IMG/VR virus record: IMGVR_UViG_3300028384_001376
Coordinates: 815-64,814 of that record
DNA length: 64,000 bases
Source: a virus
Reading direction: 5' to 3' (one strand)
Position numbers and translations under genes: made by a program. The notes under the pieces were generated by a model, which did not search any database, had not been told where the DNA came from, and worked only from the letters and a program-made list of their open reading frames with translations. This document shows, piece by piece, positions 2,108 through 25,700 of this stretch. Position 1 is the stretch's first letter, and every line of letters begins with the position of its first letter.

Positions 2108-2371
2108 ATGGCTTTTTCATCCACTGTCACCGACAAGACCGTATTTGGCAACAAACGGCGCCATGCCGGCACATTTAGCTGCGCCAGCGTGGCCACTGGC
2201 GACATCGACACGGGCCTGCGCAGCTGCGAGTCCATCACCTTGACCCACAAGAGCTCTGCGGTGGTGACCAACTGTCCGGCGGTCGACGAGACCCTGCCCT
2301 GTGCGGGCTCGGCCGTGACCATCGTCACCGACTCCAGTGCCGCAGGCTACTGGGAGGCAACGGGGTACTAA
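2108..2371 (+). CDS. hypothetical small virion protein (87 aa)
   Basis: AAAGGAGG RBS 6 nt upstream of ATG 2108. Confidence 0.4.
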   Translation: MAFSSTVTDKTVFGNKRRHAGTFSCASVATGDIDTGLRSCESITLTHKSSAVVTNCPAVDETLPCAGSAVTIVTDSSAAGYWEATGY

Positions 2372-2374
2372 CCC

Positions 2375-3094
2375 ATGGCTACTCTCAGCAACCTAAAAAT
2401 CGCCGCCGAATCGAGCCTGTACCGCCACGACGGCCAGGATCTGGTGGACAAGGTGCGCCGCAAGGTCCAGGACGACAGCTACAGTGTGGACGACATCCTG
2501 GAGCTGTTCAACGCCTGCCTGGTGGAGTTGGCCGGCGAAGTGCTCCTCGAAGAGCTGGAGACCTGGGAGCAGGTCTCGACCGATACCAGCTCATCGACGG
2601 TGCCGCTGCCGGCCAACTACCACCGCGCCCTGCGCTTTTGCCACAGCATCACCAACAAGCGCCGGATACACGTCTACGGCGGCCGGGCCCAGCTCGACCG
2701 CCACTTTGTCCAGCGCGACCAAAGCGGCCGGGTGCTCGGCGTGGCCCCGCACGGGCGCAATTTGTACTACCAGCGCATCCCGCAGACGGCCGAGGTGCTG
2801 GAGATCAACTATTTTCGCTATCCCGAGCCGCTGCGCAGCCGCGACGACAAGCCCACCTGCCTGCCGCCGCACCTGGTCGAACCCTTGCTGGTCAACTACG
2901 CGGCCAAGGAGCTGTTCTCCGAGATCGAAGACGGCATCGAGGGCCCCCAGGTCAACACTGAGCGCTACACGGCCAAGTACGACAAGGCCCGCGCAGCGCT
3001 GGTGCGCTTTGTCGGACCCGAAGAGCGTGCCCCGGTGGAGCTGGTCGACGACCTGCACTGGGACAATCTGGCCTACGGCACAGCGGCCTGGTAG
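2375..3094 (+). CDS. hypothetical protein (239 aa); head-completion or adaptor candidate by position
   Basis: Tightly packed after the head genes. ATG 2375. Confidence 0.3.
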   Translation: MATLSNLKIAAESSLYRHDGQDLVDKVRRKVQDDSYSVDDILELFNACLVELAGEVLLEELETWEQVSTDTSSSTVPLPANYHRALRFCHSITNKRRIHVYGGRAQLDRHFVQRDQSGRVLGVAPHGRNLYYQRIPQTAEVLEINYFRYPEPLRSRDDKPTCLPPHLVEPLLVNYAAKELFSEIEDGIEGPQVNTERYTAKYDKARAALVRFVGPEERAPVELVDDLHWDNLAYGTAAW

Positions 3095-3109: not shown

Positions 3110-4024
3110 ATGGCCGCACCGATCACCGTTTTTTCCGGCTCGACAGGGCTCAACACCAAGGTTGACCCCACACGGGTGCGCTTTGACCGCCAGGCCGGCA
3201 TCAGCGACCTGGCCGTGGCCTATAACGTCGACCACGACGCCTCCGGGCGCGTGTCGCGCCGCAAGGGTTATAGCGCCACGGCCGTGCTGGCCTCGGCCCA
3301 CAGCCTGTGGTCGGCCGCCGACACCGGCCCGTGCTTTTTCGTCACCGGCACCGATCTGTGCCGGCTGCACAGCGGCTACACCTACACGGCCATCGCCACG
3401 GTGACCGCCGGGGCAACGGTGCGCTACGCACCGCTGGCCGATGTGATCTGCTGGCTCAACGGCCATGAAAAGGGGCAGATACAATTCGGCACCAACAACA
3501 GCTGGGAGGTCGGCGCCTACTATGGGCCGACCACCCACCGCACCTTGAGCGACCCGCCCATCGGCCACCTGGTGGCCACCCATCGCGGGCGCATCTGGAT
3601 CGGCCAGGGATCGGTGGCCTGGTACTCCGAGCCATTTAGCGCTAACCAGTTCGACCTGGCACGCAACTTCGTGCCCTTTGGCACCCGGCTGCGCATGATC
3701 GCGCCCACCGGCCACGCCCTGTTCATCTCCGACGAAAACGGCACCTGGGCGCTGACCGGCGCCGTGCCCGACGACATGCTGCTCAACCAGGTGGCCAACT
3801 ACCCGGCCATCGAGGGCACCGAAGCGGCCATCGATTTGAGCCGCATCGGCGCAGGGGAGATGTTTGGCACCGGGGCCATCTGGACCTCGACCCGTGGGCT
3901 GTGCCTGGGCCTGCCCGACGGCACCATGCTCAACCTGACCGAAAAGAAGTTTGACCTGCCCACCGCAGCCGCCGGCGCTGGCGCCGTGGTGGGCGATCGT
4001 TATGTGGGATTACTGCAACCATAG
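3110..4024 (+). CDS. hypothetical structural protein (304 aa)
   Basis: GGAGGAGGAGGG RBS then ATG 3110. Confidence 0.4.
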   Translation: MAAPITVFSGSTGLNTKVDPTRVRFDRQAGISDLAVAYNVDHDASGRVSRRKGYSATAVLASAHSLWSAADTGPCFFVTGTDLCRLHSGYTYTAIATVTAGATVRYAPLADVICWLNGHEKGQIQFGTNNSWEVGAYYGPTTHRTLSDPPIGHLVATHRGRIWIGQGSVAWYSEPFSANQFDLARNFVPFGTRLRMIAPTGHALFISDENGTWALTGAVPDDMLLNQVANYPAIEGTEAAIDLSRIGAGEMFGTGAIWTSTRGLCLGLPDGTMLNLTEKKFDLPTAAAGAGAVVGDRYVGLLQP

Positions 4025-9430: not shown

Positions 9431-9931
9431 ATGACCGACTATTTAGGTATTTGCTATCATCTGGAGGGAAAACAGGCCAGCCAGTACGCCAACTTCAACT
9501 TCAACTCCATGTGCCGCTTCAACGGGGTGGACTTAGGGGCCAACGAAAACGGCATCTTTGTCCTCGACGACGGCGATTTCGACTACTCCGATGCGAGCAC
9601 CTACGAGCAGATCGACGCCTTTGTCGAGCTGCCCACCAGCGACTGGGGCATCGAAAACCAGAAGCGCATCCGCAGCGCCCACCTGGGCATCGAGACCAAC
9701 GGCGAGCTTTTGCTCACGTTGACCGACGATGAGGGCGTGGACCACCGCTACGACGTGGTGCCTGACTTTGTCGCTCACAAGCAGCACAGCGTGCGCATCA
9801 CAGCCGGGCGCAACAATGGCAAGGGCCGCTACTGGCGGGTGCGTCTGGACAATATCAACGGGGCCGACTTTAGCCTCAACAACCTGCGCGTCTATCCGGT
9901 CGTGCTGGGCGTGCGGCCGGCCCGCAGCTAA
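9431..9931 (+). CDS. hypothetical protein (166 aa)
   Basis: TAGGAGG RBS then ATG 9431. Confidence 0.4.
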   Translation: MTDYLGICYHLEGKQASQYANFNFNSMCRFNGVDLGANENGIFVLDDGDFDYSDASTYEQIDAFVELPTSDWGIENQKRIRSAHLGIETNGELLLTLTDDEGVDHRYDVVPDFVAHKQHSVRITAGRNNGKGRYWRVRLDNINGADFSLNNLRVYPVVLGVRPARS

Positions 9932-11366: not shown

Positions 11367-12203
11367 ATGGCTGACCTTGTAATGCAGGAGGCGCATCACG
11401 TCCACGCGGCCGACAATGTGGTATTAATCCTGACGGTCACCGTCCAGGAGAGTTACCACGACATCGTGTGTGCGTGCGACATCAGCCCGAGCTGGCACGG
11501 GACAACGCTTTTTGACGACGGCAAGACGCACCCGCACCTTCCCGACCTGCGCATAGAGGCCCAGGCGGGAGAGCGCATCGACGCGGACGCCGAACTGCCC
11601 GGCGTCCAGCTGACCGACATGCGCGGCGGCGCACGGATGGACGACACACCCAACCTGCCCGATCTGGAGCTAAGCGCCGCAGCGCTGGTCGGCGCCACCG
11701 CATCGCTGGACCAGCGCCTGCCGGCCATGGAGGCCTCCGGGCGCACCGGCGCAAGGGCTGACGATGAGCTCATGCTGCCGGCCATGGAGCTGGGCATCTC
11801 CATCTGGGGCGATCTGCTGGCGCGTCTGGATAGGACCCTGCCGGGCTTGACGATCTCGGCCCAAGCATCGACGCCGGTGGTGGCCACCTTGGCCAAAGAT
11901 CTGCCCCCGCTATCTATCTCTGCGGCCGCATCGGCCATCACCACAGCGAGCCTAAACCGGGATCTGCCAGCCCTTAAAATCTCGGCCCAGGCCCTGATCG
12001 GCGCAACGGGCACCCTGGACGCCACGTTGCCCGACCTGGAGCTTGATTCGGACAGCGGCCTGTATGGCGATGCGCTGAGCCTGGATGCCACCCTGCCGGC
12101 CGTGGTGATGGCCAGCATTGCCACCGGCACCTTCGGCGGGCAGGCCGGAGAGCTGGTCGATAGCTCCCGGTTTACCGACTATGTGATGAGGTACGAGCGA
12201 TGA
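11367..12203 (+). CDS. repeat protein (278 aa), fibre-associated
   Basis: N-terminal HHVHAADNVV motif matches the fibre repeat unit. Then about seven ~20-aa LPxLx[IL]SAxA repeats. Confidence 0.45.
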   Translation: MADLVMQEAHHVHAADNVVLILTVTVQESYHDIVCACDISPSWHGTTLFDDGKTHPHLPDLRIEAQAGERIDADAELPGVQLTDMRGGARMDDTPNLPDLELSAAALVGATASLDQRLPAMEASGRTGARADDELMLPAMELGISIWGDLLARLDRTLPGLTISAQASTPVVATLAKDLPPLSISAAASAITTASLNRDLPALKISAQALIGATGTLDATLPDLELDSDSGLYGDALSLDATLPAVVMASIATGTFGGQAGELVDSSRFTDYVMRYER

Positions 12204-13660
12204 CGCACCTGGTCGGCCTCTTGACCCTAATCTGCATGTTTTTTGGAGTGGCCATGGATGAGCGCTCAGATCGACGCTATTTCAACTTAAACGGCATCAG
12301 CTTTGAGCTGTACGGCGACGTGGAGCAGGCCCGCAGGATTGTCCCGGCAGCCCAACGGCTGATGTTTAAGACCAAGTTGACCAACACACAAGGCCTGAGA
12401 CAGCTGCGCAACGAGGCGATGTTAGGCAATGGGATCGAGATCCGGGTTTCCAGCGTATTTGGAGACGATCGCGCCAAGATCTACTATCCGCCGGGGCCGC
12501 CGGTGGGTGTAAAACCCAAAGAGCGGATCATCACCCGCAAGAGGATGTACCCGGTGCTGGGCATCAGCCTGTCGCCCCATGAATACCTGGGCGAGCGTGT
12601 CGGCGACATGTATCAAGAGGGCCCCGTGCCGCTTTCGACCATCACCAGCTACTACATGGGCTTAGAGCAGGACCGCCTCTGGTATGAAAGCATCTTGTCG
12701 GACAAAAGCACGGAGTGGAAGAAATATAACCGCCTGGTCGATGTCAGCCTCTACGGCAACCAATATTCCACTTCCCCAAGCGAATATAGCTATACGCCCG
12801 TAGAAGATCACATCATCTGGGACCATGAATTTGCCTACCGCACCATTTGGGACCCCTTCGGCCACTCTTACAATGTTGACCCGGTGATTTTTACCTGCGG
12901 CGATTATGTGCCCGAGACCGAGCTTGAGATCGAGCTTTACCATGATGAGATCCGGGCGGCAGAGTTTGAACGGCGCTACGACTATAGCCTGGTCGTTGCC
13001 GTTGGAGCAGGGCGCAGCAGCACTTCGTCCAGCCATTACGTATATGACCGGGAATTTATGGAGGACTACAACATCCCCGACGACCTGGTCGCCGACGGCT
13101 GGCCGGAGGCGATGAGAAATCGCTGCTGTTATGCCGACGGCGATTACGAGGTGTGGGAGCGCAGGGGCTCTACCGCCACGCATAGCGGCATCTCAATCTA
13201 TTGGGAGGAGGGTTGCGAGACCAATGGGGAAGCGTCTTTCGATGAAAACGAGCACAGCGCATGCCTTTACTCCCGATATAATCTCAGCGGCGCCCGCAAC
13301 TACAGCTATCAGCTGATTTTGTACGTCGATGGCGAAGACTATCTGGTCTATTCGGGCACCCGCACAGACGATTCGGAGATGCCCGACGATATCTATGTGG
13401 TGAGCGTCAAGATCTTCGATTTTTACGGCCTGCCGGTGGTAGTCTTCGGTTATGTCCAGTTCTTTGTCTCCCAGCCCGATATCGCCAAGTACGGGATTTG
13501 GTTTAATGGCGAGCTTCGCCTGACCGAAGATTGGCCCATCGACGCATACATTACGCATCCCGTCAACGTGCCCGATGAATATTCGCACTTGTACGGTTAC
13601 GGAGAGCCGGTCGCTTTCGGCATCGAGGTCGAAGAGACGACTATCGTCGACAGCGTTTAA
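12200..13660 (+). CDS. Tyr/Trp/Asp-rich hypothetical virion protein (486 aa)
   Basis: ATGA overlap with the upstream gene. Aromatic-rich composition suggests a carbohydrate-binding or tail-spike-like role (inference). Confidence 0.45.
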   Translation: MTHLVGLLTLICMFFGVAMDERSDRRYFNLNGISFELYGDVEQARRIVPAAQRLMFKTKLTNTQGLRQLRNEAMLGNGIEIRVSSVFGDDRAKIYYPPGPPVGVKPKERIITRKRMYPVLGISLSPHEYLGERVGDMYQEGPVPLSTITSYYMGLEQDRLWYESILSDKSTEWKKYNRLVDVSLYGNQYSTSPSEYSYTPVEDHIIWDHEFAYRTIWDPFGHSYNVDPVIFTCGDYVPETELEIELYHDEIRAAEFERRYDYSLVVAVGAGRSSTSSSHYVYDREFMEDYNIPDDLVADGWPEAMRNRCCYADGDYEVWERRGSTATHSGISIYWEEGCETNGEASFDENEHSACLYSRYNLSGARNYSYQLILYVDGEDYLVYSGTRTDDSEMPDDIYVVSVKIFDFYGLPVVVFGYVQFFVSQPDIAKYGIWFNGELRLTEDWPIDAYITHPVNVPDEYSHLYGYGEPVAFGIEVEETTIVDSV

Positions 13661-13683
13661 AGCCTAATGCAAGGAGGTTACCT

Positions 13684-15648
13684 ATGTCCTTTACTTTTCC
13701 GGGTGATCCCGTAAACCTAACGGCACCGCAAGCGGTGTCCTCTTCGGGCCAAACCGTGCTCGAAAAGTTCCAGCAGGCGCAAAGCTATGCCGATTCGGCC
13801 TGGAACGAAACCTGGAACCTGCTCGACCAGCTCAGAAACCAAGAGTACTTGATCGAGTGGGAGCCCATCGAGGTGGACGATCTGGACCTGATGGGTCTGG
13901 ACGGGCTGGGCATGGAAGAGCCGGCCGAGCCTGCGGTGGACACCGACATCGCCGTGGCCACCACGACCATGAGCGCGGAGGCGCCCACCTTAGATGATGT
14001 GGATATCTCAGCCGAGACGCCGCCGGCCATGAACGTGGCCGATCCGCAGTTTGCCATCCCGGACGCGCCCACCGACGAGTTCCCGGTCTTTAGCGAAAAC
14101 GCCCCGGACCTGACGGCCATCGACTATCCGACCCGGCCGGACATCGATCTGCCGGCCGTACCGCAGCTGACCGATGTGTCGATCCCCAGCCCGCCCGAGT
14201 ACAACATCGCCGATTTCGAGGGCACGGCGCCCACTGCGGATCTGACGCCGCCGGATGTGAGCTTCAACTTTGACGAGGCGGCATATACCAGCGCAGTCGG
14301 AGACGAGCTGGCGACCAAGCTGTTGGGCGACCTGCAGACCGGCGGCAGCGGCCTGGACGAGGCCACCGAGCAGGCCATCTACGATCGGGCCATCTCGCGC
14401 CAGCAGACCGAAAACGAAAAGGTGGTCAACGATGCCTTGAACTTTTTTGCCAGCCGGGGCTTTACCCTGCCGCCCGGTGCGCTATCCGGGGCGATCATCG
14501 AGGCCAACACCCGCGTGGCCCAGATCCGCGAGGATCTGAACAACGACATTCTGATCCAGCAGTCCAACCTGGCGCAGAAAAACACCCACTTTACCATCTC
14601 CTCGTCCATCGAGCAGGAAAAGGGCTTGATGGCCCTGCACAACCAGGTCCAGCAACGCGCCTTCGAGGTGGCCCAATACACGGTGGAGGCCGCCGTGAAG
14701 ATCTACGGCATCCGGGTCGAAGCCTACAAGGCCCAGCTGGAGGCCTATAAGGCCCTGGCTCAAGTCTATGAAGTGCGCATCCGGGCCGAGATCGGCAAGG
14801 CCGAGATCTACAGGGCCCAGATCGAAGGGGTCAAGGCCGTGGTGGAGGTGGACCGGGCACGGGTGGAGGCCTATCGGGCCCAGGTGCAAGGCGTTGCCAC
14901 GCTGATCGAGCTCTACCGAGCCGAGATGGAAGGCACGCGGGTCCGCGCCGAGGTGGACCGCACCCGCGTGCAGTCTTTCGGCGCCCTGGTCGAGGCCTAC
15001 CGGGCACAGATCCAAGCGGTCACGGCCCGATACGAGGCCTACCGCTACCAGATCGAAGGCGAGAAGGTCAAAGCCGACATGTACCGCAGCCAGGTTGAGG
15101 CCTATGTCGCCCAGGTCCAGGCCTATAAGGCACGGGCCGATGTGGATGTCTCCCGCGCCCAGGTGGCCGTCGAACTCAACCGTGGCCGGGTGGAGGTCTA
15201 CCGGGCCGAGATCGAACGCTACCGGGCCGAAGTGCAGGCGGCCATCGCCCAGGCCGAGACCGAAGTCAAGGTCGAAGAGCTGGAGGTGGGGGTTTACGAG
15301 AGCCAGATCAAAAGATATCAGGCCGAGGTAGATGCCACCGTGCGGGCCTTTCTCGGTCGCGTCGAAGAGCTCAAGGCCCAGATCGACCTGGAGATCAAAG
15401 AGGCCGATGTCTCCACGCGCACGGCCATTGCCAGGTACGAGATGATGACCGAGTCGATCCGCAGCGCCGCCCGTGTGTCGGGCCAGCTGGCCGCATCGGC
15501 CATGGCCTCGGTATCGGCGTCGGCCGATATTTCGCACCGGGAGAGCCGCAGCGACTCGACGAGCCAATCGGCCAACGCCTCGGCCAGCAGCAGTCATAGC
15601 AGGGCGTACAGCCACAGCTGGCAAGATATTACCGTACATCATACTTAA
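13684..15648 (+). CDS. internal-virion / ejection protein candidate (654 aa) with ~30 tandem 11-residue helical repeats
   Basis: AAGGAGG RBS. Acidic/Pro N-terminus. A 33-nt periodic repeat encodes VEAYRAQIxGV-type 11-mers. Ser-rich C-terminal tail. Confidence 0.5.
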   Translation: MSFTFPGDPVNLTAPQAVSSSGQTVLEKFQQAQSYADSAWNETWNLLDQLRNQEYLIEWEPIEVDDLDLMGLDGLGMEEPAEPAVDTDIAVATTTMSAEAPTLDDVDISAETPPAMNVADPQFAIPDAPTDEFPVFSENAPDLTAIDYPTRPDIDLPAVPQLTDVSIPSPPEYNIADFEGTAPTADLTPPDVSFNFDEAAYTSAVGDELATKLLGDLQTGGSGLDEATEQAIYDRAISRQQTENEKVVNDALNFFASRGFTLPPGALSGAIIEANTRVAQIREDLNNDILIQQSNLAQKNTHFTISSSIEQEKGLMALHNQVQQRAFEVAQYTVEAAVKIYGIRVEAYKAQLEAYKALAQVYEVRIRAEIGKAEIYRAQIEGVKAVVEVDRARVEAYRAQVQGVATLIELYRAEMEGTRVRAEVDRTRVQSFGALVEAYRAQIQAVTARYEAYRYQIEGEKVKADMYRSQVEAYVAQVQAYKARADVDVSRAQVAVELNRGRVEVYRAEIERYRAEVQAAIAQAETEVKVEELEVGVYESQIKRYQAEVDATVRAFLGRVEELKAQIDLEIKEADVSTRTAIARYEMMTESIRSAARVSGQLAASAMASVSASADISHRESRSDSTSQSANASASSSHSRAYSHSWQDITVHHT

Positions 15649-15663
15649 TCTTAGGAGGCCGCC

Positions 15664-16737
15664 ATGCCATACGAATATGAATACAAGCCGCCTTTTCAAA
15701 GGGGCACCGATCCGTTGACCCCCATGCAGCGGCTGAACTACCACTACACCAACCGCATGGGGTCCTATGCGCCCCGGCCCAGTCCCACCCCGGACATAGG
15801 CCCAGGTGCCGTGCGGCGCGGTGCCGGCGATATCTGGACGCGGGTGCGCACCGAGCTGAGCAACATCAAACAGGGCTTTACCACCATGGGACGCGGTTTT
15901 GCCGAGGCGGGCAGAGATGTGGGCCGAACCACCGGCATTACCCAATTTGGCCAGGGTGCCATCGAGGCGGGCCGTGATGTGGGCCAGGCGCTGCAGCGCC
16001 TCAATCTGGGCCCGCAGGGACCGACCCGGTTTACCCTTAATGACCCCAATGCCCGGCCGGATCGTCCTGGACCCGGCACGGCGGCCGCCAGCCCGGCGCC
16101 CAACGCACCCACCGTGGAGACCGTCGAAAGAGGTGCGCCAAGAAGCACCTACGATCGCGGCGAAGGCGCCCCCACCGGTGCCACCCGAACCCAGGCGGCC
16201 GCCGCCACCGGCACGGCGCCGCCGCCGGTGGGGACAAATGTCCCCGCCCGCAACCGCTACCTGCAGATGTACTACGCCGGCGCCGATGCTCAGGATAAAT
16301 TTTTATCCGGCCTGCCCACCGGCCGGGCGCCCATCGAGGCCATCCGGGGCACCAAGCGCAGCTACTGGTCGCCGACCACCGAAAAAGAGTACGGCACGAA
16401 GCTGGAGGCGGCCTTTGGCGTCGAGCACAAGGAAGTGGCCGCCAAGGCGGGAGCGAAGTCGAAGCAGCAGTTCGAGCTGACCAAAGAGCGCATCAAGGCG
16501 CAGAAACCAGCCGAAATTCACAGGGTCACAGATCCTGAGACCCTCAAAGAAGAGCTCAAAATCTTTGATCCCAATACCAAGAAATTCATCGATAACGATG
16601 TCGAAAGGGACAAGGCGATTGCAGAGGCCCTGCGGGCCGGGACCGTTTCCGAAGATGAGTTCAAAGACTATTACAATAAGGCCAGCGCCGCACAGAAAAA
16701 GCGTTTGCGAGAGCTTATCGCTGGATTTCAGAAATAA
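15664..16737 (+). CDS. Pro/Ala/Gly-rich protein with charged helical C-terminus (357 aa); internal virion protein candidate
   Basis: AGGAGG RBS. Sits between the repeat protein and the giant gene. Confidence 0.45.
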   Translation: MPYEYEYKPPFQRGTDPLTPMQRLNYHYTNRMGSYAPRPSPTPDIGPGAVRRGAGDIWTRVRTELSNIKQGFTTMGRGFAEAGRDVGRTTGITQFGQGAIEAGRDVGQALQRLNLGPQGPTRFTLNDPNARPDRPGPGTAAASPAPNAPTVETVERGAPRSTYDRGEGAPTGATRTQAAAATGTAPPPVGTNVPARNRYLQMYYAGADAQDKFLSGLPTGRAPIEAIRGTKRSYWSPTTEKEYGTKLEAAFGVEHKEVAAKAGAKSKQQFELTKERIKAQKPAEIHRVTDPETLKEELKIFDPNTKKFIDNDVERDKAIAEALRAGTVSEDEFKDYYNKASAAQKKRLRELIAGFQK

Positions 16738-16749: not shown

Positions 16750-19700
16750 ATGGCTGTCTCATTGGCAGAAATAAGCCGGTGGATGGATGAGCAGGACGAG
16801 GCCCCGCGCTCAGCGCCGCAGGCCTTTCGTTTTGAACCACCGCCCCAGGCAGAGCCTTACCTGCCCCACATTAAAGCGGCCGAGCAAAAATATGGGCTGC
16901 CGGAAAACCTGCTGGCACGGGTGATTGCCCAAGAGAGTAACTTTAACCCGCAGGCGGTCTCGCCCAAAGGGGCCAGAGGTATCGCCCAGATCATGCCCGA
17001 CTATCATCCCGATGTGGACCCGGACGACCCGGTCCAGGCCATCGACTATGCAGCCGGCTATCTGCGCCAGAACGCCGACCGCTTCGGTGGCGACTGGGAC
17101 AAGGCCATCGCCGCCTATAATGCCGGCCCCGGCAATATTGAAAAAGGCATTATGCCGGCCGAAACCCAAGATTATCTCAAACGCATCAAGGGAGATGTCG
17201 CCCCGGTAGCCGGCGACGTGGATCTGCAATCGATTCTGGCCTGGATGGACGAAGAGGACCGGCGCCAGGCTGCGCCCGAGCCCGGCCTGATCAAGTCCGT
17301 CACAGGCGATGTCGCCGGCGGCTTGATCGATCTTGGCGAAATGTACGCCCGCGCCGGTCGCGCCCTGCCCGGCGGCCCGGAGGCCGGCGTCGAAGGCGGT
17401 GACTTTTTATCCAAGGCCGTCGTGTGGGCCGAAGACTTTCGCAAGGCCAACCCGAGCCTGGATGTCAATCCCAACCGCAAGGGGTTTTCGCGCTGGTTTC
17501 ACGAAGGCCTGCGTGCAGCCACTACTTCTATAGCCGCAGGCCTGCCCGGTGCGGCCGCCGGTGCCGCCATAGGTTCTCTTGTCAGCCCTGGCGTGGGCAC
17601 CTTCATCGGCGGTCTTCTCGGTTATGCCACCGGTGGCGCCACCCTTTTCGGTATGAGCGAATATGACTCGTTTCTGGAAGAGGCTCTCAATGCCGGCGTG
17701 CCGCTGGACCAGGCCGAGCCGGCCGCGATGCGCAGCGGCATGTACGAGTGGAGTTTCGAGTTTGGCGCCGATCTTTTGGAAGGTTTGACCCTGGGTGCTG
17801 GCAAACTGGCTTCCGCCGCTGGCAAGCAAGCCCTCAAGGAGACGGTTGCATCCCTTTTCAAGCAGGGCGTCAAGTCCGCTTTGAAGCGCGGGACGGGCAT
17901 CGTGGGCATCGAGACCGCCTCAGAGATGCTCACCGCCGGTTTACAGGCCGAAGAGTTGCAAGGCTTGGGCATCGGCAGCCAGCGCTTTACCGAGGCGGCC
18001 ATCCATGCCTTTGGCCCCTCGCTGGTGGCCTCGATGATCTTTGCCGGCCTGGGCGAGTATGGCCGGCATCGGGTGAGCAAGCGGGTGCAAAACACCTTGA
18101 AAGACCCCGAGGCCTCACCGGAGGCCCGCGAGGCTGCGGTCAAGATGGTCCACGACGCCATCGCCCCGGTCAATGAGCAAGTGGCGGCGCTGTGGCAGGA
18201 CACGGCCATGCAGGCGGTGGCAAACAACGAGGCCATCGACCTGGATGCGCCCATCGCCACCGACGCCCAGCTCGATGCCATGATCGAGGCCGACGTGGAC
18301 CTGGGCGAAAACGCGGCCAATGCCGTGGCCCAGGAGGAGGCTGCCGCTGCGGCCACCGAGCAGACCACCATTGAAGAAGACATCGACGCCCATGAGGCCT
18401 CCAAGGCCGCCGACCCGCTGGGCGACGACGCCATCGCCCAGGATATCATCGACAAGATCGCTGGCGGCCGTACCGCCCCGGTGGCCACCGTGCCACGCGG
18501 GCAAGGGGCCGAAGAGCTCAAGGCGGCCATTAGTGACTCAAAAACGGCCGAAAGTGAGCCACAAACCGGTTTGCCATTAACGGGTGAGGCACAAGCCTAT
18601 GAGCTGCCGCCTAAAACCGAAGGCGACTACAACCGCATCAAAGACTATGCCCAGTGGTTCAGAGCCAACCGCGATATGTCCAAGCGCTCCAATGCGGCCA
18701 GGGCCGATGAATTGGACTATTTTCTGGAGCGTCTGAGCCTGGGCAATCTGCCCATGCGACTGGCCCGAGTGATCAAAGGCAAAGGCAAGACCTGGGGCGA
18801 CGAGCGCATGGACCGCGTGGTCGATTTGCACGAACCGGTGCGCCGGGCCCTGGCTGATAAGTATGGCATGAACCTGATCAACAAGGCTTTTGAGGACCCC
18901 GAGTATAAAAAGAAGATCCGGGCCAAGCAAAAGGCCCAGGAGGAGCTACACCAACAGGCCCGCGAGCTGCTGACCGAGGACGAGTACCGCAAGGTCAGCA
19001 TGACCAACGTGCTGAGCCACTACTTCGACCCGGAGAAAAAAGAGCGGCCCACCACCTACGGCCTGGCACGCCGGCTTAACACCAGTGTGGAGGAGATCCG
19101 CGAGGCCATCGCCCTGGTCAACGAGTTCACCGACGGCGGACTCTATGTGGGCGAGCGCGGCGTGATCGACGGCACCATGTTCGATCGTGACGGTTATGAT
19201 ATGCACCGCGTCTTTCAGGGGGTGATCGACAAACGGGGTCAAACCGGGCCAAAACCGGAAGAACCGGGTGAAACCGTTTCAACCCAGGTTGAAACGCCGA
19301 CCGAAAAACCGCAAACCAAGCGCGAAAAGGCCGAAGCCGAATATAACGAGTTGGTGGCCTCTCTCACCGACGAGCAGCGCACCGCCCTGGGAGATCTGGT
19401 CAAAGAGACCGCGCCGAAAAACCCCTCGGTGTTGACCCACCGCATCCGCAAAAAGCTGGCCGAGATGGAAAAGGCGCCAGAAGCGCCGCAGATCCCCACC
19501 GATGTTATGCGAATGGTCAATGGCCGCTATGTCCAGATGACTGAGGCCGAGCGCCCTGCCCTGTACGAGCAGCTGGCTGACCTTAAAAAACAGGCCCAGG
19601 CCCACGGCGACAAGTTCCCACGGGGTACGATGCTGGCCGTCAATGCGCAGATGCGAACCCTGGAAAACGGGGCGGGCGAAATACCGACCTTCAAGACCAT

Positions 19701-22700
19701 TATCAACGAGGCCAAAGAGGAATTGGCCAAGCTGGAAAAGCCCCCGGCGCCGGCAGAAGAACCTGCCGATTCAACCTGGTGGGATAAAGAGCTGACACCC
19801 CAGGGCCGCCGCGAAGTTATGGCCAAGGCCGGCATTAAGCTGCCCGCCAGGGTCTTGTGGCGCAACATTTCGGATGAGAATCGGGCACGGCTATTGAGGG
19901 CCAAAGAAAGTGAACCTCCGGCCGGCAAAAAAACCGGCCTGACACCCGAGGGGCGAAGATCGCTCACCCGCCTGCGCGACCACCTCGAAAACAAGGGCGC
20001 CGGCTGGATACCGTCGGCAAAAAATACCTCCGAGCGCGTATCCTATCGCATTGTCCCGAGCGAAGCCAAGGACGGCTATTACAGCATCGAGCGTATTGAC
20101 GAGCGGAAGCTGCGCCAGATCCACACCGGCCCCTGGAATATGGAGCAGGCCAGGGCCGCCGCCATGAGGATGGCCAGGATGGAGCTGGAAACCGGGGAAA
20201 AACCCCCTCACCCTTCCAGTATCAAGAAGACCAAAGAAGAAAAAGCATCCGTGAAATTTGAGATCGGCGATATCGTGCGCCCCAAGCAGGGCAGCGGCAT
20301 CAGCGAAAAAAATGCCGGACGAATCGAACACATCAGCCGCGACAGCCAGGGCAATGAGTCGATCCAGACCGAAAACACCGGCAGCATGCACTTTGACGCC
20401 AAAGATTGGGAGCTGGTCACGCCCGAGGCTGAAAAGCCCTTGACACCAGATTCACAGATAGCAAATAATAAACCATTAGCCAGCGTTAGCGCCGACGACC
20501 TTCTGGCCGAGTGGGACCGGCAGGCGGCCGAGGCCGAAAAGCCGAAAAAGCCGAAAAAGCCGGAGACCTTAAAAGAGCGCCGCAAAAAGGTCAAGGCCCG
20601 GCAAAAGCAAAACGCCCAGGCGGCCAAACAGCCGGCCAAAGTAAAAAAGGCCGCCCGGCAAAAGGCCAAAGAGACCAAACAGCACCTGGCCAACGCCCTG
20701 GACGCCCTCAAGCAGATCAATAAGATTGTGGGCGAAAAGGGCCAGCTCGGCGAGGTCGACCCAACCAAATGGGAGCAGATCCGGCCGCTGCTCAAACTGG
20801 CCTGGGATGAAATGCTGGCCGCCGGCAAATCGGCCAAGGAGTTTGTGGCCCTGTCGCTGCAGACCCTGAGTCCGGCAGGCCGCCCCTATTTCGAGAAATT
20901 CGTAAGAGAGGAGATCGCCAATGAGCCTGTATCCGGTGAGAATGAAATACCTTTTGATGAGGGACTTTTACGGGACCGTGAAGAAGTGGCGGGAGAACCC
21001 CGACCAGCTGGACCAGGAGATCAGACAGACGCTGATCAATTCGGGCCAGTACGCGCAGGAGCTGAAGAGCAAGAACCTGGCATACGACCAGAGACAGGAG
21101 CTGATCAACAACTTCATCGCCCCGGCGGACGTACCGGACAAGCAAAGCCCGGACGAAAACCTGTTCGAGCAGATGATCAAGTGGGCGGAGGAAAAGGGAG
21201 CTCAGTTTCTCCAGGAGCGCAAGGCACAGAAGCGTTAGCGCCCGAGGATCGCAACCACGTCATCGCCCCCGACGATGTTATCGCCCCGCCTGGGATCGAG
21301 GGCAAAATCAACGCCAACATCAAGGCTATTCGCCTGCTCAAACAGCTGGAAGAACAAGATCGCAACCCCACCCCTGACGAAAAGAAAATCCTGGCCCAAT
21401 ATGTCGGTTGGGGCGCCTTTTCGCAAAAGGTGTTCAACGCCGACTATCACCGCTACTTGACCAAAAACAAAGACACGGCCCCGGAGGATTACTTTTGGCA
21501 GCCCGAAACGCTGAAAAAGTACAACCAGTGGGCCAACAAGTACGGCAAAAAGCTGCACCCCCAGCTCGGCGGCTTGATGACCCAGGAGGAGTGGAGCTCG
21601 GCGGCAGCGTCTACGATCAACGCTCATTTCACTTCAAAAGAGGTCGTTACCAACATGTGGGACCTGGCCAAACGTCTGGGGTTTAAGGGCGGCACCGTGC
21701 TCGAACCCGCCGCCGGCGTCGGCAACTTCTTTGGTCTCATGCCCCAGGATATCGCCCAAGAATCGGTTCTTTTCGGCGTGGAAAAAGACAGCCTCTCCGG
21801 CCGGATTCTCACCAAGCTGTATCCCCAAGCCGCCATAGAGGTGGGCCCGTTTGAAAAAAGCAGGGCGGTGCTGGACAACTCCATCGACCTGACCATTACC
21901 AACGTGCCCTTTGGCCGCGTTTCGATCTCAGACAAGCGCCATCCTGACTATGACGGCTGGCGGCTGCACAACTACTTTCTGGCCCGCAGCCTGGACGCCA
22001 CCAAGCCCGGCGGTCTGATGATGGCCATCACCTCGGCCTGGTCCATGGACGCCAAGAGCAACGGCAATGTGCGCGAATACCTGGCCAACAAAGCCGACCT
22101 GATCGGCGCCATACGCCTGCCCAACACGGCATTTAAGAGCAATGCCGGCACAGAGGTTGTCACCGATGTGCTGGTATTTCGCAAAAAGGACTCCAACGCC
22201 GCGAGCCTGGGCCACGATTTTCGCGTGGTCGACTATCTCGACAACAAAGAGTTCAGGGCGGCCGAAAAAAAGCTGATGCAAGCGCGGGAGCGGTTTGCCC
22301 GAGTGAAGAAAACCAAGCCCCAAAAAGACGCCAAGGCCCATGTCATGCGTGCCTATCGCCGGCGGTACAAGGCGGCCAAAGAGGCCGTCTCAGAGGCCAT
22401 GACAGACTATCGGGCCAGCTACGCGATCAACGAATACTTTATCAAAAACCCTGAGATGGTCCTGGGCAAGCACTCGATGAAAGGCTCGATGTACGCGGCC
22501 AACACTTACACCGTTGAGCCCTCGGGTGATCTGGCCGGGCAGATGGCCGAGGCCGTGACATCGTTTCCAGAAAATATTGCCGGCGAAGGCAGCGATCTGA
22601 GTCAACTGGAAAGGGTGGAGCTGGCCGGGATGAACGCCAAAGAGGGCACGCTGACCGTAAAAGACGGCGAGATCAAACTCATTGAAAACGGCCGTCTGGT

Positions 22701-25700
22701 CTCCCCACACTATGTGGGCAGCAAAGGTGAAAAGATGCCGCTCAAGCCGGCACAGCTCAAGCGCGTCAAGGCTTATCTCAAGCTGCGCGACCTGACGGCC
22801 GAGACCATTGCGGCCATGGGCGATGAGGCCACCACCGACGCCCAGGTCACAGACTACCAGCGCCGACTCAACCAGACCTATGATGCCTACGTCAAAAAAT
22901 TCAAGGCTTTCAACGGCAACGCTGCAAACAGTTTTCTGTCAAAGCTGGACAACGATTTTGCCTTGGTCGACGCCCTGGAGGTCCGCGTGGGCGATGGGCC
23001 CGACGCCGAATGGGTCAAGGCGCCGATCTTTACCGAGCGCACCGTATATCCTTTCAGAGAGCCCGACTCGGCCGACAGCATCGAGGACGCCATAAACCTT
23101 TCGATCATCTACCGTGGCGAGGTGTCGATGCCGTACCTGTCCGAGCTGTTGAGCATCCAGGATGCCGAAGCGATCAAGCGCGAGATCGTTGAAAAGGGCC
23201 TGGGGTTTGTCAACCCGGACACCGGCAAGGTCGAGCAGCGCGACCTGTATCTGTCCGGCAACGTGAAAAAAAAGCTGGCCAAGGCCAAGACGCTCGCTCA
23301 GGGCGATCCGTCTTATAATGCCAATGTCAAGGCGCTTGAGGCGGTTATTCCCGAAGATATTGATATCGAGTTTATCACCTTTCGCCTGGGCTCGACCTGG
23401 CTGCCGGCCGAAGCGGTCCAGGACTTTATAAAAGAGGTCATCGAGGTCGACGCCACCGTTGAGTACGTCGAAAAGGCCGGTGTGTCGCGCTGGCATATCG
23501 GCATAAACTCCGGCGCTTTCAACATAAAAAACCGTGAGACCTATGCCAGCGGCGATATTTCGGCCGTCGGTCTGATCGATCTGGCCCTTAACCTTAAATC
23601 GCCAAAGGTCATGGTGCCCACCGAGGACGGCAAGAGCACCTACGAGGATAAGGAAAAATCCAGAGAGGCTCGGATCAAGATGAACGAGGTCAGCGACGAG
23701 TTTGTCGCCTGGGCCAAGGGGCACGCCGACTGGACCTCCAGGTTGACCGCCAAGTATAACGAAGAGAAAAACGGCACCGTGCTGAGAAAGCACACCGCCC
23801 CGGATATCGATGTTTACCCCAACGCCAGCCCGGTTAATGTGGATGGCGCCCCGTTGCGGCTGCGTGAGCATCAGAAAATTGCCGTATCACGGGCCCTGCA
23901 AGAGTCTGTCCTGCTGGCCTACGGTGTGGGCACCGGCAAGACCTTTATCCTGATCACCACGGCCATGGAGATGAAACGCATCGGCACGGCCCGCAAGCCG
24001 CTGATCGTGGCCCACAACTCGACCATCGACCAGTACCGCAACAGCTTTAAGGTGCTCTATCCGGGCGCCAAGGTGCTGATCCCCAACGACAAACAGCGCA
24101 ACGCCAAGCAGCGCAAAAAGCTGCTGATCAGCATGGCCACCAATGACTGGGACGCCATCGTGCTGCCCCAGAGCTTTTTCGACGGCATCGCCAACGATCC
24201 GGCCAGAGAGCAGGCCTTTGTCGATGAGCAGATCGCACAAATCGAGGATGCCATTGCCGAGGCGGTAGCCGAGGAGGGCTCCGACTCCTGGACGGTCAAG
24301 GATCTGGAAACCCTCAAGGAGAACCGCATCCAGCGTCTGGATCGCCTGCTGGACCGTCGCCAAGACGAGGCGCTGACCTTTGAGCAGATGGGCATCGACG
24401 CCCTGTTGGTCGACGAGGTCCACTCCTATAAGCGCAGCGAGTTTTACACCAAGCTGAACAAGGTGCGCGGCATCGACAACGGCTCCAGCCAAAAGTCGAC
24501 CAGCCTGATCTTAAAGAGCCAGTTTGTCCGGCAAAAGACCGGCGGGAAAAACATTATCACGGCCACCGGCACCCCGATATCCAACACCCTGGCCGAGCTG
24601 TGGACCATGCTGCGCTATGTGCGGCCCGATCTGCTCGAAGACTATGGCGTGGCGATGTTCGACAACTTCGCCTCCACCTTCGGGGTGGTCGATGAGGACA
24701 CCGAACAGACGGCCAGCGGCTTCAAAGAGATCGAGCGCTTTAAGAGTTACACCAACGGCCCCGAGTTGCTGAGCATGTTCTACAGCGGCGCCGACGTGCG
24801 CCTGACCAAAGATGCCAACCTGCGCCTGCCGGACATCAAGGGCGACAAGCCCACGATGGTCGTCAACGACAAGTCGCCCGAGCTGACGCTCTATATCAAG
24901 GATATCATCGATCGATGGAAGGCATGGGAATTGTTGACCGGCCGAGAAAAGCGGCAACAGAAGCATGTGCCCATCGTGCTCTATGGCCTGGCCAAAAAGG
25001 CCGCCGTGGATATGCGCCTGGTCGACCCGCAGTATTTCCAAGACGATCCCAACAGCAAGGTCAACAACTGTGTGCGCGAGGCCCAGCGCATCTACAAAGA
25101 GTCTGCCGATATCCAGGGGACACAGGTCATATTTTGCGATCTGATTCGAGACAACGCCAAAGCTCCGCGCTTTAACCTGCACGAAGATCTTAGGGCCAAG
25201 CTGATCAAAACCGGCATCGGCGATGACGAAGTTGTCATATTTGAGTCCGGCCTATCCGATACCAAAGAAGAAGCCATCAAAGACCGGGTGCGCAGCGGGG
25301 CGATCCGGGTGATTATCGGCACCACCGAGCGCCTGGGCATTGGCGTTGACATCGCCGACAAGATCGTGGCCGGCCATCATCTGACCGTGCCGGATCGGCC
25401 CATGGATATGGAGCAGCGCAACGGCCGGTTTATCCGTCAAAGCAACAAAAACAGCCAGGTCGAAGTGCTACAATACGCCACCAAGGACACCCTGGACGCG
25501 GTTATGTTCCAGCGCCTGGCCACCAAGCAAAAGGGCGCCGACCAGGTTCTGACCGGCGATATCGACGGCCGCGACTTCGAGGACCCGTACAGCGCCGAGC
25601 AGGCCGATTTTAACGAGTTCGCCGCTGCGGCCTCGGGCAAGGCCGGCAAGCTGTTGTTTGAAAAGAGCAAGCTGACCAGCCAATTGCACAAACACCGGAT

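What the first reader, a model, noticed from the sequence alone, without database searches (positions are those of the whole stretch)
13684..15648. Virion protein built from about 30 tandem 11-residue repeats
The coding DNA has a 33-nt period between about 14690 and 15330, encoding VEAYRAQ[IV]xGV-like undecapeptides. Hendecad repeats can form long right-handed coiled-coils or apolipoprotein-like helical sheets. This fits an extended envelope-spanning conduit working with the downstream SLT giant protein. The C-terminus is an unusual Ser-rich tail.
Basis: seen in the sequence. Interest (0 to 1): 0.55.

Follow-up and report, generated by a model that had tools for sequence, protein, structure and literature searches.

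The report
Phage coiled-coil rod protein, heptad-based
This gene encodes a conserved phage virion protein whose long helical part repeats every 7 residues, not every 11, and whose proline-rich front half appears to run alongside that helix to form a stiff rod, more probably a tail appendage than a DNA conduit.

Summary
The ORF (13684-15648, 654 aa) is real and its coding sequence is periodic. The period is 21 nt / 7 aa, not 33 nt / 11 aa: DNA lag 21 scores z=+7.1, lag 33 z=-0.4.

Residues 343-496 form 22 unbroken heptads, A-x-[VIL]-E-[AG]-[YF]-[KR]. This is a "Type-3" pattern with two opposite apolar seams. The Ser-rich tail is real and conserved.

The protein belongs to PHROG 10969 (function unknown). 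Homologues include F116 p57, H66_0058 and Dartukuta gp55, and the family has about 3,200 clusters in metagenomes. Its pre-coil domain is shared with KPP25 gp04, which is solved in PDB 26la/44nx together with tail-region protein gp06.

Most members have no indel across 385 residues. In relatives with longer coils, the acidic Pro-rich N-terminal linker lengthens in proportion (slope 0.52-0.55, r=0.99), with the same number of extra repeat copies. I infer that the N-terminal half lies antiparallel along one helix of about 52 nm.

Rod length varies several-fold among relatives. That argues against a fixed periplasm-spanning conduit and favours a tail-docked fibre-like rod. Function is inferred, not shown.

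The parts
13671..13677 (+). Ribosome-binding site AAGGAGG, 6 nt upstream of the ATG
   Evidence: Read directly from the sequence.
13684..15648 (+). ORF of 654 aa. Member of PHROG 10969; homologue of F116 p57, H66_0058 and Dartukuta gp55.
   Evidence: ORF listing. PHROG 10969 matches at E=1.4e-107 over aa 92-638. tblastn finds 42 phage records. GC3 is 0.82 in frame.
13741..13836 (+). N-terminal helix, aa 20-51 (32 aa). Proposed to pack against the C-terminal end of the long helix (aa 585-615, 31 aa).
   Evidence: AF2 secondary structure. The pairing is inferred from length matching only.
13837..14292 (+). Acidic, Pro-rich extended linker, aa 52-203. It has 37 D/E, 2 K/R and 21 Pro, four hydrophobic-PxxP motifs and invariant prolines. 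Proposed strand that runs along the coiled coil.
   Evidence: Composition. Invariant P114/129/141/157/171/183/190, and a length of 125 aa for aa 91-215 in 44 of 50 sequences. No secondary structure, at pLDDT about 65-77 over most of the segment. Its length co-varies with coil length in relatives.
14293..14673 (+). Conserved helical 'head' domain, aa 204-330, with motifs GGSGL..ATEQAIYDRA..SRGFxLPPGAL..DLNNDIL. Shared with the KPP25 gp04 family.
   Evidence: phmmer against PDB 26la_X gives E=1.1e-5 over aa 222-376. Profile-profile A1 vs A2 gives probability 96.5%, E=1e-9, over aa 174-319. No indel in 120 sequences.
14674..15528 (+). Long alpha-helical heptad region, aa 331-615. The helix starts at aa 264 inside the head domain, so aa 264-615 is 352 aa, or about 52 nm if straight.
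   Evidence: AF2 helices 264-415 and 421-615. No helix-breaker cluster between aa 320 and 606. 139 of 146 anchored family members have exactly 254 aa between the head end and the C-end anchor.
14710..15171 (+). 22 unbroken heptads, aa 343-496, with consensus A-x-[VIL]-E-[AG]-[YF]-[KR]. This is the 'hphphhp' or Type-3 pattern with two apolar seams.
   Evidence: Heptad lay-out. Class frequencies per heptad position over 120 sequences. Periodicity statistics.
15529..15645 (+). Ser-rich C-terminal tail, aa 616-654, with an alternating S-x-S-x-S pattern and aromatic/His residues near the end. Predicted disordered.
   Evidence: Sequence. Family consensus. The tail is also present in Dartukuta gp55. 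pLDDT is below 50.
9431..9931 (+). 166-aa protein homologous to the C-terminal domain of KPP25 gp06 and to F116 p56. Candidate docking partner of the head domain (inferred).
   Evidence: Local phmmer: KPP25 gp06 E=1.4e-14. Homologues are present in L005 and L007. gp06 and gp04 share PDB entries 26la and 44nx.
12200..13660 (+). 486-aa protein immediately upstream, with no detectable homologue in relatives. A large, mutually dissimilar protein holds this position in the relatives examined. Candidate receptor-binding partner (speculative).
   Evidence: No PHROG or Pfam hit. No counterpart at E<=1e-3 in L005 or L007, although the flanking genes are conserved.
15664..16737 (+). 357-aa basic protein with a Pro/Gly-rich N-half and a Lys/Glu-rich C-half, lying between the target and the giant gene. 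Context only.
   Evidence: ORF. pI 9.6. Weak homologue in L007.
16750..32553 (+). 5267-aa giant virion protein with an SLT domain and a DarB-like methyltransferase-helicase. Its relatives, F116 p60 and H66 gp60, were classed as IVP-D (the T7 gp16 type) by Hardies et al. Context only.
   Evidence: Pfam SLT at aa 41-139 and ResIII. PHROG 10089. PMC4819975.

Best explanation
The protein is a structural rod of the virion.

Shown:
- It belongs to a very large, length-locked family of phage proteins (PHROG 10969).
- Its C-terminal half is a heptad coiled-coil sequence with two apolar seams per helix. One seam is large (V/I/L plus Tyr). The other is small (Ala plus Ala/Gly) and lies about 154 degrees away.
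- In relatives, the length of the acidic Pro-rich N-terminal linker tracks the length of the coil at about 0.53-0.55 residue per helical residue. The same number of extra repeat copies is found in both segments.

Inferred structure: the chain folds back on itself.
- The N-terminal helix (aa 20-51) sits at the far end.
- The extended linker (aa 52-203, about 2.8 A per residue) runs antiparallel along the long helix (aa 264-615, about 52 nm). It probably lies on the Ala/Gly seam.
- The head domain (aa 204-330) forms the base.
- The V/I/Tyr seam joins two or three such helices into a coiled coil.
- Any indel in the helix then needs a matched indel in the strand. This would explain the absence of indels in most members.

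Inferred function: the head domain docks on a tail protein carrying the gp06 C-terminal-type domain, here the 9431-9931 product. The rod projects from the tail as a fibre or whisker-like appendage, possibly carrying the variable protein encoded just upstream. It is not a channel for DNA.
For: Periodicity and pattern. The pattern hhphphp is the 'Type 3' repeat, which sets up two distinct hydrophobic seams (PMC6175849; PMC7814010).

Family membership and size. There are 3,176 representatives of 50%-identity clusters at E<=1e-3.

Length lock:
- No gap in aa 216-600 in 120 sequences at 33-75% identity.
- 139 of 146 members have an identical coil spacing.

Co-extension:
- Eight relatives have coils longer by 33 to 417 aa. 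All have linkers longer by 20 to 219 aa, with r=0.987 and slope 0.52-0.55.
- Repeat units pair as 55/103 aa (P0255), 23/43 aa (P0266) and 69/130 aa (P0277), a ratio of 0.53 each. Length differences are consistent with four extra copies in each segment in P0255 and one in P0277. In P0266 they fit three extra coil copies (129 aa) and three or four linker copies.
- With head-domain anchors only, the slope is 0.53 over 237 sequences. A shorter clade loses about 35 and about 20 aa, and no sequence has a long coil without a long linker.
- In the query itself the ratio is 152/254 = 0.60.
- In P0050 two helices are extended together at a ratio of about 0.9, as expected for helix-helix pairing.

Position of the coil insertions: in most long relatives they lie at about query aa 507-590, far from the AF2 hairpin tip.

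Tail association:
- The head domain is homologous to KPP25 gp04.
- gp04 shares PDB entries 26la and 44nx with gp06. Portal and nozzle are in 26fb, and the capsid protein is in 26de and 44ny.
- gp06-C-type proteins are conserved in the window, L005, L007 and F116/H66. In H66 that gene abuts the homologue.
- A nozzle gene directly follows the homologue in L005.
Against: - AlphaFold2 (monomer, 50-sequence alignment, pLDDT 71, pTM 0.40) predicts an alpha-helical hairpin instead: helices 264-415 and 421-615. The regular heptad block 343-496 happens to be centred on that turn.
- I could not inspect model coordinates or run a multimer prediction.
- Covariation analysis (Meff about 96) was inconclusive.
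- What PDB 26la depicts could not be retrieved. Co-deposition with gp06 does not prove an external location, and the role of gp06 itself is unknown.
- The gene sits next to the ejection-protein genes in the window, F116 and KPP25.
- The protein has no beta-rich receptor-binding domain.
- H66 virion mass spectrometry did not list the homologue.
- Some long relatives may share an ancestral expansion. The number of fully independent co-expansions is therefore at least three or four rather than eight.
Confidence: 0.45

Rival explanations
1. Ejection (internal virion) protein. It is packaged in the head, expelled at infection and assembled into an alpha-helical tube across the periplasm. It would be a functional analogue of T7 gp15 or N4 gp52, working with the downstream SLT/DarB giant protein.
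For: - The gene lies upstream of the giant protein, separated from it by a single gene, in the window, F116, Dartukuta and L007. In KPP25 and L005 two or three genes intervene.
- It is all-alpha beyond aa 204.
- Hardies et al. found no IVP-B or IVP-C candidates in the F116 group, and describe IVP-C proteins as fast-evolving, helical and coiled-coil-rich (PMC4819975).
- gp15-like proteins are normally assigned by size and synteny (PMC8954989).
- Type-3 heptads are the pattern that can close into large alpha-barrels.
- There is a weak phmmer match to the MacA hairpin (E=0.002).
Against: - No profile similarity to T7 gp13-15 or P22 gp14/7/20/16; all hhalign probabilities are below 4%. A profile search of the PDB finds only KPP25 gp04.
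- No transmembrane segment.
- Helical length differs several-fold among relatives and is matched by the N-terminal strand. A periplasm-spanning tube should have a roughly fixed length.
- The KPP25 homologue is ordered with gp06 and is not deposited with the portal. The KPP25 proteins gp02 and gp03, encoded next to the giant gene, are absent from the PDB.
- A nozzle gene follows the homologue in L005, and a terminator is annotated after it in H66.
Confidence: 0.2
2. Structural rival: the helical region is a true antiparallel alpha-hairpin about 22-29 nm long, as AlphaFold2 predicts. It would oligomerise into a multi-helix bundle, with the Pro-rich linker wrapping up and down it.
For: - The AF2 best model has a turn at aa 416-420.
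- The regular heptad block 343-496 is centred at aa 419.5.
- Foldseek matches are all antiparallel coiled-coil hairpins such as Rad50, SMC and chemoreceptors.
- The 0.55 ratio would also fit a strand that travels twice the length of a hairpin.
Against: - pTM is 0.40, and the turn itself has pLDDT below 50.
- There is no conserved helix breaker at aa 416-420 or anywhere in aa 320-606.
- Covariation shows no enrichment for a fold-back at aa 418. It shows only a weak, uncorrected enrichment near aa 456-464.
- Tandem insertions in relatives mostly sit in one 'arm' (about aa 507-590), which would unbalance a fixed hairpin.
Confidence: 0.2
3. Tail-channel plug or needle, or an internal axial core or ruler. 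The rod would sit in or on the tail axis, like the P22 gp26 needle, and be released first at infection.
For: - The gene lies between the nozzle genes and the ejection genes, as P22 gene 26 does.
- It has a long heptad coiled coil, like gp26.
- The partner domain (gp06 C-terminal type) shows a weak, position-consistent resemblance to the C-terminus of the T7 nozzle protein gp12 (hhalign E=0.022, probability 2%).
Against: - No similarity to P22 gp26 (probability 0.7%).
- gp04 is not in the portal-nozzle entry 26fb.
- Rods predicted at 52 nm, and at more than 100 nm in P0255, exceed any podovirus tail channel. The longest would exceed the capsid's inner diameter.
Confidence: 0.12

Closest known systems
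PHROG 10969 (Pseudomonas phages F116 p57, H66_0058, LKA5, Epa33 'structural protein 4', 8P; phage Dartukuta gp55)
   Same: - Full-length homology, with the HMM matching at E=1e-107.
- The same architecture: N-helix, Pro-rich linker, head domain, Type-3 heptads and Ser tail, checked in Dartukuta gp55.
- The same gene neighbourhood.
   Different: - Only about 32% identical to the cultured-phage members.
- The function of the whole family is unannotated.
- The F116 reference ORF is frameshifted.
KPP25 gp04 family (PHROG 36971; PDB 26la chain X and 44nx, 'Structural protein', 318 aa)
   Same: - Homologous head domain (target aa 174-319 = gp04 57-211, probability 96.5%).
- An N-terminal helix followed by a low-complexity linker, and an Ala-rich C-terminal helix.
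- A similar gene position, upstream of the giant-protein module.
   Different: - Half the size.
- It lacks the Type-3 heptad block (z=0.2 at period 7/3) and the Ser tail.
- Its structure is deposited, but neither a title nor a paper could be reached here.
T4 fibritin (wac) and other phage coiled-coil fibres such as the T7 gp17 shaft (from my own knowledge)
   Same: A long, heptad-based alpha-helical rod on a phage particle, of the order of 50 nm, anchored at one end.
   Different: - No sequence relationship was tested or expected.
- As far as I know, fibritin has no length-matched Pro-rich strand and no second Ala/Gly seam.
- The oligomeric state here is unknown.
Type-3 (a/d + c/f) bifaceted coiled coils: the TolC alpha-barrel, designed alpha-sheets and nanotubes (Walshaw & Woolfson 2001, cited in PMC6175849 and PMC7814010)
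   Same: The same hphphhp / hhphphp heptad pattern, with two seams on nearly opposite faces of the helix.
   Different: Here one seam is made almost only of Ala/Gly. It may be used by an extended strand rather than by another helix. No evidence of a closed barrel was obtained.
T7 gp15 / N4 gp52 periplasmic-tunnel ejection proteins
   Same: Helical virion proteins encoded just upstream of a giant ejected protein that has a lytic transglycosylase domain.
   Different: - No sequence or profile similarity.
- Variable rod length.
- An ordered association with a protein encoded in the tail gene region, in the KPP25 homologue.

Membership tests
Hendecad (11-residue) coiled coil | Sequence periodicity of 11 residues (33 nt), with hydrophobic period 11/3 | tested here: not met
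   Lag 11/22/33 identity is 0.087/0.032/0.077. DNA lag 33 gives z=-0.4, and hydropathy at period 11/3 gives z=-0.8.
Heptad coiled coil, Type-3 (bifaceted) subclass | 7-residue periodicity with apolar residues at four positions, in the pattern hhphphp / hphphhp | tested here: met
   Lags 7 to 42 are significant. Apolar residues (large hydrophobic plus A/G/S) make up 85%, 98%, 96% and 72% of heptad positions 1, 3, 5 and 6. Positions 1, 3 and 5 have at most 3% charged residues. These figures cover 22 heptads in 120 sequences. Definition from PMC6175849.
Heptad coiled coil | Helices actually wound round each other, with a known oligomeric state | not testable with these tools
   Only a monomer AF2 prediction was possible. 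No multimer prediction and no coordinates were available.
PHROG 10969 | Full-length match to the family HMM | tested here: met
   E=1.4e-107, covering aa 92-638 of 654 and profile positions 85-630 of 632.
KPP25 gp04 family (PHROG 36971 / PDB 26la_X) | Homology over the whole protein | tested here: inconclusive
   Only the head domain is significantly similar (E=1e-9, probability 96.5%, aa 174-319). The C-terminal match is not significant (score -2.3).
T7 gp15-type periplasmic tunnel protein (IVP-C) | Sequence or profile similarity to T7 gp15 or its recognised homologues | tested here: not met
   hhalign of A1 against T7 gp15 gives probability 0.3%. A profile search of the PDB gives no ejection-protein hit.
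T7 gp15-type periplasmic tunnel protein (IVP-C) | [quoted passage not shown] | tested here: inconclusive
   The protein is helical and lies one gene upstream of the IVP-D-type giant. No IVP-B is identifiable. Copy number and ejection cannot be tested here.
T7 gp14-type outer-membrane ejection protein (IVP-B) | Predicted transmembrane helices (PMC8954989) | tested here: not met
   The maximum 19-residue Kyte-Doolittle mean is 1.01, with no window at or above 1.6. hhalign against T7 gp14 and P22 gp7 gives probabilities of 0.3% or less.
P22 gp26-type tail needle | Homology to gp26, and an axial trimer plugging the nozzle | tested here: not met
   hhalign probability is 0.7%. The axial location is not testable. 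KPP25 gp04 is not in the portal-nozzle PDB entry.
DNA tandem-repeat array | Head-to-tail DNA copies detectable by Tandem Repeats Finder | tested here: not met
   No array of period 21 or 33 is found. Only two short 15-nt rows are reported.

The most novel reading that the evidence does not exclude
The family represents a fibre architecture that, as far as I could find, has not been described. It would be a 'self-splinted' rod: one very long heptad helix per chain, lined over its whole length by the chain's own extended, acidic, Pro-rich N-terminal segment lying on an Ala/Gly seam. The rod can then change length only by matched duplications in two distant parts of the gene. Such duplications are observed as 23/43, 55/103 and 69/130-residue unit pairs. 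By this route the rod would be tunable from a short KPP25-type version to more than 100 nm, in thousands of uncultured podophages.
Probability: 0.35. Interest if true: 0.6.

Novelty: new variant of a known kind. Interest (0 to 1): 0.4.

Why it matters
This is one of the conserved but unannotated virion proteins of the F116/Hollowayvirus-like podophages. Its family has about 3,200 clusters at 50% identity in metagenomes.

- Knowing that it is a heptad rod corrects the annotation lead. It is not a hendecad array and probably not the DNA conduit.
- It points to a tail appendage that may carry the variable, host-range-determining protein encoded next to it.
- The co-duplication of a Pro-rich strand and a coiled coil at a fixed 0.53 ratio is a clean comparative signal. 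If confirmed, it would give a simple design rule for length-adjustable protein rods.
- It would also explain why a 385-residue stretch tolerates no indels at 33% identity.
- If the rival reading were right instead, this would be the missing periplasmic-tunnel protein of a phage group that injects a 5,000-residue enzyme.

Tried and rejected
1. Retrieving what PDB 26la depicts.
- I modelled a protein 99% identical to KPP25 gp04 (pLDDT 57) and searched the PDB fold library. There was no hit, so the entry post-dates that library.
- Literature searches for KPP25, phiR18, Kochitakasuvirus and for Pseudomonas podophage cryo-EM found no structural paper.

2. Fold searches with the target model against the PDB and against viral predictions. 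They returned only generic antiparallel coiled coils such as Rad50, SMC and chemoreceptors. None was informative.

3. Covariation (MI with APC) on 120 sequences, to locate a fold-back. It was too shallow (Meff 96). There was only a weak, uncorrected enrichment around aa 456-464 and none at the AF2 turn.

4. Ralstonia phage GP4, a relative by portal and capsid protein with a published tail containing a 'rope protein' (that description is from memory). No GP4 tail or internal protein resembles this family. The phiXacm4-11 preprint describes a T7-like phage and is not related.

5. Similarity of the gp06-C-type domain to the T7 gp12 C-terminus. hhalign gave E=0.022 but probability only 2%, so I keep it as a hint only.

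6. hmmalign to place the insertions. Local mode pushed them to the ends. Global pairwise alignment placed the coil insertions acceptably, but alignment of the linker is unreliable. I therefore did not use axial matching of insertion positions as evidence.

7. The N-helix and C-end anchors mis-place in some sequences. I repeated the test with head-domain anchors only.

8. Promoter and terminator scan around the gene. Nothing exceeded the chance expectation.

9. The weak MacA alpha-hairpin match (E=0.002). I judged it to be coiled-coil composition bias.
Full report
**Observation.** The ORF exists exactly as stated: 13684..15648, + strand, 654 aa. It has an AAGGAGG site 6 nt upstream of the ATG, and GC3 is 0.82 in frame against 0.66 and 0.42 in the other two frames. 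The long antisense ORF 14482..15945 is a shadow of this GC-rich periodic coding strand.

The coding DNA is periodic, but the period is 21 nt, not 33 nt.
- In 14644-15351, identity at lag 21 is 0.454, against a codon-shuffle null of 0.329 +/- 0.017 (z=+7.1).
- Lags 42 and 126 are the highest, at 0.464.
- Lag 33 gives 0.321 (z=-0.4) and lag 66 gives 0.24.
- At the protein level, identity autocorrelation peaks at every multiple of 7 (0.19-0.25). Lags 11, 22 and 33 give 0.087, 0.032 and 0.077.
- The same holds as a mean over 50 homologues.
- Tandem Repeats Finder sees no 21- or 33-nt array, so this is a protein-pattern periodicity and not a young DNA repeat.

They lie 42 residues, or six heptads, apart. 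The stated refutation criterion, no significant 33-nt periodicity, is met. The Ser-rich tail is real and conserved.

**Anatomy.** An AlphaFold2 monomer model built on a 50-sequence alignment (pLDDT 71, pTM 0.40) gives the following:
- a helix at aa 20-51;
- no secondary structure in aa 52-203;
- helices at aa 204-219 and 226-257;
- one very long helical region, aa 264-615, which the model bends at aa 416-420, where pLDDT falls below 50;
- a disordered tail.

Residues 52-215 contain 37 Asp/Glu, 2 Lys/Arg and 21 Pro. They carry four hydrophobic-PxxP motifs and seven invariant prolines.

Residues 343-496 are 22 consecutive heptads with no register break. The consensus is A-x-[VIL]-E-[AG]-[YF]-[KR]. 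Over 120 sequences, the four apolar positions look like this:

| Heptad position | A/G/S | Large hydrophobic |
|---|---|---|
| 1 | 63% | 22% |
| 3 | 25% | 73% |
| 5 | 61% | 35% |
| 6 | 8% | 64% (46% Tyr) |

Positions 2, 4 and 7 are polar. This hphphhp pattern explains why hydropathy power is concentrated at period 7/3 (z=21.7). It is the 'Type 3' heptad, which sets up two hydrophobic seams on one helix (PMC6175849; PMC7814010). Here a V/I/Tyr seam and an Ala/Gly seam lie about 154 degrees apart. There is no transmembrane-like segment.

**Family.**
- Pfam finds nothing.
- PHROG 10969, of unknown function, matches over the full length at E=1.4e-107.
- tblastn finds about 32%-identical homologues in 42 phage records. 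Most are Hollowayvirus phages of Pseudomonas: F116 p57, H66_0058, LKA5, and Epa33 and 8P, where the homologue is annotated 'structural protein'. Phage Dartukuta gp55 is also found.
- The word-indexed protein search returned 488 relatives.
- The exhaustive profile search found 3,176 representatives of 50%-identity clusters at E<=1e-3, of which 1,782 score at or below 1e-30.
- Dartukuta gp55 has the same Type-3 heptads (z=18.9) and the same Ser tail.

**Context.** The window is a nearly complete podophage genome. It contains terminase at 56012-57655, portal at 58619-60910, major capsid protein at 222-1196, an adaptor at 2375-3094 and a nozzle-type Hc3 protein at 3110-4024. The giant 5267-aa ORF carries an SLT domain and a DarB-like methyltransferase-helicase.

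Hardies et al. placed F116 and H66 in a 'tail structure homology group' of their own. They identified the nozzle (p52) and an IVP-D-type giant protein (p60, H66 gp60). They found no IVP-B candidates in this group (PMC4819975).

**A distant relative has a solved structure.** phmmer and a family profile against PDB sequences hit only 26la chain X (also in 44nx), a 'Structural protein' of 318 aa, at E=1e-5 to 1e-6. That sequence is KPP25/phiR18 gp04.

Profile-profile comparison of the two families gives probability 96.5% and E=1e-9 for target aa 174-319 against gp04 57-211. What is shared is the pre-coil 'head' domain, not the heptads.

Within the PDB:
- gp04 shares entries 26la and 44nx with gp06, a 620-aa virion protein encoded just after the nozzle gene.
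- Portal and nozzle are in 26fb.
- The capsid protein is in 26de and 44ny.
- gp03, gp05 and gp02 are absent.

The C-terminal domain of gp06 exists as a separate small protein in this window (9431-9931, E=1.4e-14), in F116 (p56) and in the metagenomic relatives L005 and L007. In H66 the gene carrying that domain abuts the homologue of the target.

I could not obtain the title of 26la, because it post-dates the fold library.

**Gene order.** The window, F116, Dartukuta and L007 show the order [variable large protein] - [target] - [one gene] - [giant]. In KPP25 and L005 two or three genes lie between the homologue and the giant. In L005 the gene directly downstream of the homologue is the nozzle-type protein, homologous to window 3110-4024 at E=2e-79. 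In H66 a terminator is annotated right after the homologue. The gene therefore sits at the border between the tail module and the ejection module. Adjacency to the giant gene alone does not assign it.

**The length lock and its exceptions.** In 120 family members that are 33-75% identical to the query, aa 216-600 align without a single gap. Of 146 anchored members, 139 have exactly 254 residues between the head domain and the C-terminal anchor.

The exhaustive search also returned longer relatives. In all eight whose coil is longer, by 33 to 417 aa, the Pro-rich linker is longer too, by 20 to 219 aa. The correlation is r=0.987 with a slope of 0.52-0.55.

In three relatives the expansions are recognisable tandem repeats whose unit lengths pair up in the two segments:

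| Relative | Linker unit | Coil unit | Extra copies | Ratio |
|---|---|---|---|---|
| P0255 | 55 aa | 103 aa | 4 in each | 0.53 |
| P0266 | 23 aa | 43 aa | 3 in the coil, 3-4 in the linker | 0.53 |
| P0277 | 69 aa | 130 aa | 1 in each | 0.53 |

The copy numbers are my reading of the length differences.

- Using head-domain anchors only, the slope over 237 sequences is 0.53. A shorter clade loses about 35 and about 20 residues. No sequence has a long coil with an unchanged linker.
- The query itself has 152 linker residues for 254 coil residues, a ratio of 0.60.
- A ratio of 0.53 equals the rise of a helix residue (about 1.5 A) divided by about 2.8 A, which is typical of an extended Pro-rich chain.
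- As an internal control, P0050 has two helices extended together, by 76 and 87 aa. That ratio of about 0.9 is what helix-helix pairing predicts.

**Interpretation.** The simplest reading is that the N-terminal half of the chain runs antiparallel along a single long helix.
- The N-helix (32 aa) lies against aa 585-615 (31 aa).
- The linker lies along aa 331-584.
- The head helices lie against aa 264-330.
- This gives a rod of about 52 nm.
- The Ala/Gly seam is the obvious bed for the strand, and the V/I/Tyr seam is the obvious helix-helix core. Both assignments are inference.
- A two-part pairing explains why indels are almost never tolerated.

The AF2 alpha-hairpin is a rival.
- In its favour, the regular heptad block is centred on the predicted turn.
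- Against it, the turn has low confidence.
- There is no helix-breaking motif anywhere in aa 320-606.
- Covariation does not support a fold-back at aa 418.
- The tandem insertions of most long relatives lie at about aa 507-590, in one 'arm'.

**Function.** I favour a tail-docked, fibre- or whisker-like rod, for these reasons:
- the ordered gp04-gp06 association in KPP25;
- conservation of a gp06-C-type partner;
- a mutually dissimilar large protein always encoded just upstream;
- a nozzle gene next door in L005;
- rod length that varies several-fold among relatives.

It lacks positive evidence beyond synteny and helicity, and it fits poorly with the variable length. There is no profile similarity to T7 gp11-15, P22 gp10/26/14/7/20/16 or any GP4 tail or internal protein; all probabilities are below 4%.

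None of these functional statements is shown. They rest on comparative inference and on a PDB co-deposition whose content I could not read.

**Verdict.**
- The protein is a member of a known but uncharacterised phage family.
- The Type-3 heptads, the 385-residue indel-free core and the co-duplicating Pro-rich strand make it a moderately interesting structural variant of phage coiled-coil rods.

Noticed in passing
window 11367-12203 (+): The 278-aa protein two genes upstream of the target contains ten repeats of about 21 aa, of the form D-x-x-L-P-x-L-x-[IL]-S-A. The LP dipeptide falls at aa 58, 77, 97, 118, 137, 158, 179, 200, 221 and 243. Homologues in L005 (473 aa) and L007 (348 aa) differ in length, so the copy number probably varies.
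   Followed up: partly
window 3110-4024 and 9431-9931 (+): The nozzle (tubular tail B) may be split. The 304-aa Hc3-type protein matches only the C-terminal part of PHROG 8040. A separate 166-aa protein carries the domain found at the C-terminus of KPP25 gp06 and in F116 p56. That domain aligns weakly, but in the matching position, to T7 gp12 aa 702-760.
   Followed up: partly
L001 (F116, NC_006552) 11692-13506: The reference F116 p57 ORF runs out of frame after about aa 275, giving an Arg/Gly-rich nonsense sequence. tblastn needs two pieces there but only one in LKA5 and H66. F116 p55 and p56 likewise correspond to the single 387-aa gene H66_0057. These are probably sequencing errors in the 2005 record.
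   Followed up: partly
window 16750-32553 (+): A single 5267-aa ORF. It has an SLT lytic transglycosylase at aa 41-139, a Gly-rich hydrophobic stretch at about aa 255-300, and a DarB-like methyltransferase plus SNF2/ResIII helicase (PHROG 10089). Relatives range from more than 3,000 aa (GP4) to about 4,200-4,400 aa (Dartukuta, L005, L007). The equivalent is split into two genes in F116.
   Followed up: partly
L002 (MW749009, 'Bacillus phage' Dartukuta): This phage is F116-like throughout the tail and ejection module. The N-terminus of gp55 is almost identical to that of F116 p57. The recorded Bacillus host looks doubtful.
   Followed up: no
window 1274-2371 (+): This 365-aa ORF has pI 11.4 and is Arg/His/Gly-rich, except for its last 90 or so residues. 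It overlaps a 245-aa ORF at 1281-2018 in another frame. The long ORF is probably not the real gene over most of its length.
   Followed up: no
L003 (KPP25) 12633-13805: KPP25 gp03 is labelled 'photosystem II D1' through PHROG 35998. It shows weak BNR/Asp-box (sialidase-type beta-propeller) matches instead, so the label is almost certainly wrong.
   Followed up: no
window 34001-36000: GC drops to 0.49 and AT skew turns negative around a 400-aa ORF on the minus strand (34189-35391). That ORF has no PHROG match. It may be a moron or an oppositely transcribed module.
   Followed up: no
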